From positions 620,001 to 684,000 of the forward strand of contig JAQGDQ010002367.1 of the NCBI GenBank assembly GCA_030141605.1: DNA of 64,000 nucleotides. The letters are read 5' to 3'. The notes under the pieces were generated by a model, which was not told the DNA's origin, searched no databases, and saw only the letters and a list, made by a program, of their open reading frames with translations. A program made the translations under genes and the position numbers. This stretch comes from Tubiluchus corallicola (Eukaryota > Animalia > Priapulida). Below are positions 176 to 8,424 of this stretch, piece by piece. How positions within the stretch are numbered: the stretch's first letter is position 1; every line of letters begins with the position of its first letter.

Positions 176-8424
<8,249 letters not shown>

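What the first reader, a model, noticed from the sequence alone, without database searches (positions are those of the whole stretch)
1447..1473. Racemase with Cys at the catalytic re-face Ser position (SCGNH instead of SSGNH)
Seen: exon 3 starts VTYSCGNHG, with TGT at 1459-1461 (Cys80). Established: in fold-type II serine racemases the second Ser of SSGN (human Ser84) reprotonates the carbanion to give the D-isomer, and serine dehydratases have Ala there and cannot racemize. Inference: this otherwise intact enzyme may use a Lys/Cys two-base pair, a thiol acid-base similar to PLP-independent racemases and possibly redox-sensitive, or it may have shifted to another reaction. I do not recall a characterised animal member with Cys here, but cannot check.
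Basis: partly seen in the sequence, partly recalled or inferred. Interest (0 to 1): 0.8.

Follow-up and report, generated by a model that had tools for sequence, protein, structure and literature searches.

The report
Racemase with cysteine replacing catalytic serine
An intact animal gene of the vitamin-B6-dependent enzyme family that makes mirror-image amino acids carries a cysteine where its closest relatives nearly always keep a catalytic serine, and it likely still turns L-aspartate into D-aspartate with that cysteine, an untested chemistry for this family, though it may instead be a decaying or re-purposed spare copy.

Summary
TGT at 1459-1461 encodes Cys80 of a nine-exon, 329-residue gene of the animal serine/aspartate racemase group. 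It aligns without gaps to human Ser84, and read contigs of two recorded samples carry it. Cys here is very rare: 0 of 456 fetched homologues (365 Ser, 76 Ala, 14 Thr, 1 Trp), and only two unconfirmed bacterial cases in pattern scans.

The protein has the Ser-Ser-Ser-Asp loop of aspartate racemases. It is not otherwise canonical: Arg replaces the Lys114 equivalent, and one residue is inserted before the substrate-binding Arg. A paralog that looks more canonical over the short stretch seen exists in the same read sets.

Best reading (0.5, inferred, no assay): an aspartate racemase using Lys54 and Cys80. Rivals: a relaxed or decaying duplicate (0.27), or a lyase that no longer racemises (0.2). 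No Cys-bearing ortholog, expression data or structure could be obtained, so selection on the Cys is not shown. No such variant or S84C mutant turned up in the open-access literature searched; key subscription papers were unavailable. New variant of a known kind, cheap to test.

The parts
176..358 (+). Coding exon 1 (Met1-Lys61); PLP lysine Lys54 at 335-337 in S-F-K-I-R-G
   Evidence: PALP match; Lys in 113 of 113 family rows
1066..1107 (+). Coding exon 2 (14 codons, inter-domain linker)
   Evidence: AG/GT ends, frame kept; predicted, no RNA seen
1447..1616 (+). Coding exon 3: carboxylate-binding loop and most of the small domain
1459..1461 (+). TGT, Cys80, in the column of the re-face Ser84 of human serine racemase
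   Evidence: 0 Cys in 456 homologues
1474..1476 (+). Ile85 in the column of human Gln89 (ATP allostery)
   Evidence: Gln in 97 of 113 rows, Ile in 1; role from PMC6333871 passages
1549..1551 (+). Arg110 in the column of human Lys114 (proposed Ser84-water-Lys114 relay)
   Evidence: Lys in 113 of 113 rows; no Arg among 456; alignment
1603..1611 (+). One-residue insertion (aligned as Cys129, 1606-1608) in the loop before substrate-binding Arg132 (human Arg135)
   Evidence: gap in 113 of 113 rows at that column; the paralog's loose end has the usual length
2007..2091 (+). Coding exon 4 with the triple-serine loop Ser149-Ser150-Ser151-Asp152 at 2056-2067
   Evidence: same loop in 5YBW; meaning
3003..3129 (+). 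Coding exon 5 with the four-glycine phosphate loop (3066-3077)
4306..4356 (+). Coding exon 6 with metal-site Glu207
   Evidence: predicted
5608..5732 (+). Coding exon 7 (T-I-A-D motif; Cys240 at 5667-5669)
   Evidence: predicted
6781..6831 (+). Coding exon 8
   Evidence: predicted
8269..8424 (+). Coding exon 9: Glu282, C-G-G-N pyridine-nitrogen motif (8368-8379), stop
   Evidence: (Cys312 in 108 of 113 rows, ordinary)

Best explanation
The gene encodes an intact-framed, divergent member of the animal PLP-dependent serine/aspartate racemase group with cysteine at the re-face site, and it likely still works as an aspartate racemase in which Lys54 would remove the alpha-proton and the Cys80 thiol would put it back from the other face. 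Shown: the frame, the PLP-binding residues, Cys80 in the Ser84 column, the aspartate-type loop, and a paralog. Inferred: splicing and expression; aspartate as substrate; that the thiol reaches the alpha-carbon; that a thiol at the start of the carboxylate-binding helix needs no lysine-water relay, which would free Lys114 to become Arg; and that Cys is tolerated here because aspartate racemisation forms no electrophilic aminoacrylate, whereas in the eliminating enzymes that make up most of the family a thiol at this spot would be alkylated. Its rate may be lower than that of Ser-bearing enzymes.
For: All PLP-anchoring positions are kept: Phe53, Lys54, Thr77, Ser79, Gly81-Asn82-His83, Arg132, glycine loop, Glu282, C-G-G-N; 56 of 62 near-invariant columns are unchanged while 49% of other columns differ from the majority. 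The loop is S-S-S-D as in 5YBW (best PDB hit of the exon, E 6e-16; loop); animal aspartate racemases invariably have two or three Ser there (PMC11850409 section 16), and S-S-S enzymes racemise only, with no serine elimination (PMC6424897 section 18 Table 2), so losing racemisation would leave no known activity. The site takes a different polar residue: S84T keeps a tenth of the racemase activity and Ciona SRR3 with natural Thr makes D-serine in vivo (PMC8916719 passages). Cys is a better acid than Ser and is the usual base in cofactor-free racemases, helped by a helix dipole. A fully neutral history long enough for 3 to 5 extra changes at invariant columns leaves frame and splice sites whole in only 2 to 27% of simulations (my model). 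The one coding difference listed among the printed rows (4328) is synonymous (n = 1, 563 rows not shown).
Against: No assay, structure or RNA. Cys is shunned by the family although it is one base from Ser: 0 of 456 proteins, 0 of the best 120 hits to a Cys-only profile, one true homologue in 185,579 prokaryote genomes for the pattern used while Ser or Thr versions of that pattern occur in 96 of 300 other genomes of one phylum. All 23 rows with an aspartate-type loop keep Ser and Lys. Lys114 is kept in 76 of 76 Ala-type dehydratases, so K110R is not simply the relay being set free. Departures are not significantly concentrated in the small domain (Fisher p 0.15 to 0.73). The protein has the most departures (6; others 0 to 5) and the longest end branch of the ingroup (0.87), and a paralog could cover the function. 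No Cys-bearing ortholog was found.
Confidence: 0.5

Rival explanations
1. A spare duplicate under relaxed selection: a former aspartate racemase whose job is covered by the paralog, drifting at the active site (Ser to Cys is one base change) and now weak or inactive, with its frame not yet broken.
For: Paralog with the same intron position and usual loop length in runs X2 and X4. Most departures at conserved columns among 114 rows, spread over the protein; longest ingroup end branch; Cys80, Arg110 and the insertion are each unseen in the fetched relatives. Neutral survival of the frame is 21 to 42% if only two departures are in excess.
Against: Frame, 8 of 8 GT..AG introns and all PLP anchors are intact. 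Several departures are residues that working relatives use: Tyr78 in 120 of 120 bacterial hits, Gly182 as in human. Survival falls to 2 to 27% for 3 to 5 excess changes. The comparison rows are top profile hits, so they are biased to look canonical, and long branches are expected where no close relative was sampled.
Confidence: 0.27
2. A re-purposed PLP lyase: Lys54 still removes the alpha-proton but nothing reprotonates from the re face, and the enzyme eliminates a beta-substituent from an acidic substrate such as threo-3-hydroxyaspartate or serine-O-sulfate; Cys80 is then a filler like the Ala of dehydratases.
For: All S84 mutants keep beta-elimination and S84A keeps the preference for acidic substrates. 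Arg132 is kept. Racemase-dehydratase switches are described as easy in this family (PMC11850409 section 18). One family row (Corticium) has Ala.
Against: The S-S-S loop abolishes serine elimination in the enzymes tested (other substrates not covered there). Dehydratases among the fetched proteins use Ala, Ser or Thr, never Cys. A thiol next to an aminoacrylate intermediate should be a liability (inference).
Confidence: 0.2
3. Assembly error or a private allele; the species normally has Ser.
For: Contigs hide minor alleles; the second sample has depth 3.9 and could be related to the first.
Against: Window, X2, X3 and X4 all read TGT; X4 is on record as another sample and study and differs from both window and X2 at 2124.
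Confidence: 0.03

Closest known systems
PLP-dependent aspartate racemase of the ark shell Scapharca (Anadara) broughtonii, PDB 5YBW; also Crassostrea gigas AspR
   Same: Best PDB hit of exon 3; near-identical record P0314 is 51.5% identical to the spliced protein; same S-S-S-D loop, PLP lysine, Arg and C-G-G-N motif.
   Different: Keeps Ser at the re-face site, Lys at the relay site, Gln at the Gln89 site and the usual loop length before the Arg. No orthology shown: the protein is unresolved in the tree, and aspartate racemases arose repeatedly.
Human serine racemase (PDB 3L6B) and its S84A, S84D, S84N, S84T mutants
   Same: Gap-free alignment over exon 3 puts Cys80 on Ser84 and Arg110 on Lys114; same fold-type II motifs.
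   Different: H-P-N-Q loop, prefers serine, eliminates more than it racemises. No S84C mutant appears in the passages read or searches made.
Ciona SRR3 (natural S84T and R135T)
   Same: An animal paralog with a natural change at the re-face residue that still makes D-serine, at a low in vitro rate (PMC8916719 passages).
   Different: Thr keeps a hydroxyl; here it is a thiol, and Arg135 is kept.
Serine/threonine dehydratases (SDS, IlvA, TdcB)
   Same: Same fold and loop; no hydroxyl at the re-face site.
   Different: Ala at the site (76 proteins; Ala65); lower similarity; no triple-serine loop.
Cofactor-independent Cys/Cys racemases (glutamate racemase, DAP epimerase, HisR)
   Same: Analogy only: thiol as proton donor at a helix start.
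   Different: No PLP, two cysteines; this protein is a PALP-domain protein with a PLP lysine.

Membership tests
Animal SerR/AspR homology group (fold-type II PLP) | PALP domain | tested here: met
   PF00291 on exons 1, 3, 5 (exons 1 and 3 over the cut-off), none on exon 9
Animal SerR/AspR homology group (fold-type II PLP) | PLP lysine in S-x-K-x-R-G, four-glycine loop, x-G-G-N motif | tested here: met
   Lys54, Gly182-185, Cys312-Gly-Gly-Asn; motifs from PMC6333871
Animal SerR/AspR homology group (fold-type II PLP) | Groups with animal SerR/AspR, apart from bacterial homologues | tested here: met
   Inside the 114-row ingroup, SH-aLRT 100, quick tree, only two outgroups, long branch
Lys/Ser two-base racemase (SerR or AspR proper) | Hydroxyl residue (Ser84, rarely Thr) as re-face acid/base | tested here: not met
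   Cys80. Hence filed as a variant of the group, not as a proven racemase
Lys/Ser two-base racemase (SerR or AspR proper) | Lys114 of the proposed Ser-water-Lys relay | tested here: not met
   Arg110; Lys in 113 of 113 rows
Lys/Ser two-base racemase (SerR or AspR proper) | Substrate-binding Arg135 | tested here: met
   Arg132, after a one-residue insertion
Aspartate racemase subtype | Two or three Ser in the 152-154 loop | tested here: met
   S149-S150-S151-D152
Aspartate racemase subtype | Racemises aspartate in vitro | not testable with these tools
   needs an assay
Serine/threonine dehydratase | Ala at the re-face site | tested here: not met
   Cys
Cofactor-independent Cys/Cys racemases | PLP-free fold with a cysteine pair | tested here: not met
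   Only PALP-family matches
Expressed gene | Spliced transcript carrying TGT | tested here: inconclusive
   no RNA holder listed; run X6 gave no cover of the exons

The most novel reading that the evidence does not exclude
A natural PLP-dependent racemase with a lysine/cysteine two-base pair: an animal aspartate racemase that has traded the Ser-water-Lys relay for a thiol acid, with the pocket rebuilt around it (Arg110, Ile85, an inserted Cys129, Cys240), making D-aspartate synthesis open to thiol redox control at the catalytic residue itself.
Probability: 0.3. Interest if true: 0.72.

Novelty: new variant of a known kind. Interest (0 to 1): 0.5.

Why it matters
How a serine hydroxyl, with a very high pKa, can protonate the carbanion in serine racemase is still argued (PMC6424897 passages; PMC8142540 section 7; PMC9001717 section 14). 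A natural enzyme with Cys at that site and Arg in place of the proposed helper Lys is a ready test of the relay model. If active, it would join PLP chemistry to the thiol strategy of cofactor-free racemases, a pair not named in the review section read. If inactive, it warns that a triple-serine loop does not suffice to call an aspartate racemase. At present it is one gene in one species with no function shown.

Tried and rejected
No whole genome is held, so the paralog could not be read; its residue at site 80 is unknown. No RNA holder listed; X5 and X6 gave no cover of the codon.

Search for Cys-bearing relatives: exon 3 alone gave 70 mostly prokaryotic dehydratases; the HMMER scan gave 150 listed of 2821; none had Cys. 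A Cys-only profile returned 120 Ser proteins of 7449 scored hits, the rest unseen. DNA patterns: 4 matches in genome contigs, 1 a true homologue (L003) in a frameshift-ridden gene from an assembly whose rpoB is also split over frames, so discounted; 1 match in metagenome contigs (L005), one partial contig, unconfirmed. The patterns fix the neighbouring residues and miss intron-split genes.

Alternative Ser-bearing exon in the window: none. Editing of TGT to a Ser codon: rejected, A-to-I and C-to-U cannot do it (own knowledge). 'K110R is release of the relay after loss of racemisation': rejected as sufficient, since Ala-type dehydratases keep Lys. 'Changes cluster at the re face': not significant. 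Cys312 as a second novelty: ordinary. Ornithine decarboxylase Cys360 as a precedent for a thiol acid in a PLP enzyme: recalled, but the passages read do not state that role, so not used. Alignment A2 was misaligned and not used; A3 was not searched. ESM Atlas gave only PALP clusters. Exon 7 alone found no PDB hit. No structure was predicted, as only single exons could be submitted. The careful tree did not finish. Earlier findings on other racemases concern the cofactor-free family and do not bear on this.

Full report
Observation. Window 1447-1473 reads VTYSCGNHG with TGT at 1459-1461. Joining nine predicted exons (176-358, 1066-1107, 1447-1616, 2007-2091, 3003-3129, 4306-4356, 5608-5732, 6781-6831, 8269-8424) gives 990 nt, 329 residues and a terminal stop, with GT..AG at 8 of 8 introns. 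The model rests on splice signals and homology; no transcript was seen. Exon 3 aligns without gaps to human serine racemase 80-131 and to 5YBW aspartate racemase, its best PDB hit of 52 (E 6e-16), which places Cys80 on Ser84 and Arg110 on Lys114.

Is the codon real? Six runs were listed, none on record as an RNA holder. On 1380-2160, one X2 contig (depth 162) matches throughout with 0 differences; it may be the source sample. An X4 contig (other sample and study on record, depth 3.9) covers 1380-1491 with 0 differences, just meeting the 31-letter bridging rule. X3 agrees but ends 21 letters from the codon, and X5 does not cover it. An assembly error is very unlikely; a hidden minor allele cannot be excluded from contigs. 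The same call shows a second locus: an X2 contig of 4865 nt (depth 180) and an X4 contig match 1543-1602 with 9 differences, end the exon at the same intron position and lack the insertion described below. The genome therefore likely holds a paralog, whose residue at site 80 was not visible.

How rare is Cys? Three protein searches and one HMMER scan, with cluster members, gave 464 proteins; 456 show the motif: 365 Ser, 76 Ala, 14 Thr, 1 Trp, 0 Cys. These are listed top hits, not all hits. Among 113 full-length rows (117 new hits less P0230, P0231, P0234, P0301) the site is Ser 102, Thr 10, Ala 1. A profile built only from Cys-bearing rows still returned Ser in 120 of its best 120 of 7449 hits. 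In 185,579 prokaryote genomes a Cys pattern matched 4 times, once in a true homologue, in an assembly with frameshifts in that gene and in rpoB. The matching Ser/Thr/Cys pattern hit 97 of 301 genomes of that phylum; by my count of the 101 printed matches 93 are Ser, 7 Thr and 1 Cys, the seed itself. JGI metagenomes gave one partial homologue with Cys (L005).

Anatomy. The PLP anchors are all present (Phe53, Lys54, Ser79, Gly81-Asn82-His83, Arg132, Gly182-185, Glu282, Cys312-Gly-Gly-Asn). The loop 149-152 is S-S-S-D, as in 5YBW. Animal and plant aspartate racemases invariably carry two or three serines there (PMC11850409 section 16), and S-S-S enzymes racemise without eliminating serine (PMC6424897 section 18). 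But the site is not otherwise canonical: Arg110 where 113 of 113 rows have Lys and none of 456 has Arg; Ile85 where 97 of 113 have Gln; one extra residue before Arg132, a gap in 113 of 113 rows; Cys240 where the common residues are Leu and Thr. The protein departs at 6 of 62 near-invariant columns, against a mean of 0.96 and a maximum of 5 in leave-one-out counts; the rows are top profile hits and so lean canonical. All 23 rows with an x-S-S loop keep Ser80 and Lys110. The quick tree nests it in the ingroup with support 100 against two bacterial outgroups, with no close relative and the longest ingroup end branch, 0.87 (the careful search did not finish).

Selection. Ninety percent of near-invariant columns are kept against 51% of the others, so most of the branch was under constraint. 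Recent relaxation is not excluded. In my neutral simulation the frame and splice sites survive in 21-42% of runs for two excess changes, 10-27% for three, 4-19% for four and 2-11% for five (indel shares of 0 to 10% assumed). Departures are not significantly concentrated in the small domain (p 0.15-0.73). Lys at the 114 site is kept in 76 of 76 Ala-type dehydratases, so its change here is not explained by loss of racemisation alone.

Mechanism. Established: Lys56 and Ser84 are the two bases; S84A, S84D and S84N lose racemisation, S84T keeps it at a tenth, all keep elimination; a Ser84-water-Lys114 relay is proposed because the hydroxyl is a poor acid. Ciona SRR3 has natural Thr and is needed for D-serine in larvae. 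Cys is more easily desolvated and more acidic than Ser or Thr, and serves at helix starts in cofactor-free racemases. Inferred: Cys80 can take the re-face role, and it is tolerated in an aspartate enzyme because no aminoacrylate forms, whereas in eliminating relatives it would be alkylated (conjugate addition of the active-site lysine is reported for the yeast enzyme, passage). I give this 0.5, a relaxed duplicate 0.27, a lyase 0.2, artefact or private allele 0.03. The full novel case, with a purposely rebuilt and redox-gated site, gets 0.3.

Literature. Searches for an S84C/S82C mutant or SCGNH with serine racemase gave 3 unrelated papers; racemase + PLP-dependent + cysteine residue + re-face gave 0; a Lys-Cys/thiolate search gave 5 papers, by their listings about cofactor-free enzymes or reviews; some searches returned the same few papers. 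Seen: PMC6424897 (passages, sections 16, 18); PMC11850409 (abstract, passages, sections 3, 14, 16, 18; a motif search of 7 supplementary files found none of four motifs, so its alignments are probably pictures and were not seen); PMC6333871, PMC8916719, PMC11602996, PMC5518511, PMC11912471 (passages); PMC9001717 (passages, sections 9, 14); PMC8142540 (passages, outline, section 7). The 5YBW paper was not held, and the Uda invertebrate surveys were seen only as citations; a characterised Cys variant could be in them.

Verdict. A real and very rare substitution at a catalytic site of an intact-framed, aspartate-type racemase homologue, with a plausible and cheaply testable mechanism, but a single gene, with a paralog, further drift and no sign yet that the Cys itself is conserved.

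Noticed in passing
window 1543-1602 (runs X2 record 2, X4 record 6): A paralogous racemase exon elsewhere in the genome: 9 differences in 60 nt, same intron position, usual loop length before the Arg.
   Followed up: partly
family rows: Thr at the re-face site marks whole groups of animal homologues (5 of 5 scallop rows; also Eriocheir, Diadema, Oscarella, Strongylocentrotus); Ala in the sponge Corticium; Trp in fragment P0200. Possibly weak racemases or dehydratases, untested.
   Followed up: partly
L005:88-255 (- strand): Bacterial serine-racemase-like gene with Cys at the same site, open frame as far as the contig goes; single contig, may be an error or a rare allele.
   Followed up: partly
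window 1606-1608 and 5667-5669: Two further unusual cysteines: Cys129 (inserted, before Arg132) and Cys240 (by counting, the column of human Ser242, recalled as a ligand contact; not confirmed in the papers read). Proximity to Cys80 untested.
   Followed up: partly
window 1008-1144 and 2997-3138 (run X5): Run X5 bears the same species label but matches exons 2 and 5 with their flanks at only about 85-90%: a related species or another paralog.
   Followed up: no
window 10071-15499 (- strand): Glycosyltransferase 49 (dystroglycan glucuronyltransferase type) gene in at least two exons, Pfam PF13896.
   Followed up: partly
window 59002-60429 (+): Single open frame of 475 residues, TIGR01177/UPF0020 methyltransferase (TRMT11-like by recall), apparently without introns.
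   Followed up: partly
window 63268-63999 (-) and 18673-19416 (-): SNF2-type helicase C-terminus with RING finger; a leucine-rich-repeat exon.
   Followed up: partly
window 4640-8050: Introns 6 to 8 hold high-copy repeats (summed contig depth up to about 800,000); 39338-39769 looks like a retrotransposon integrase fragment (by recall, not tested).
   Followed up: no
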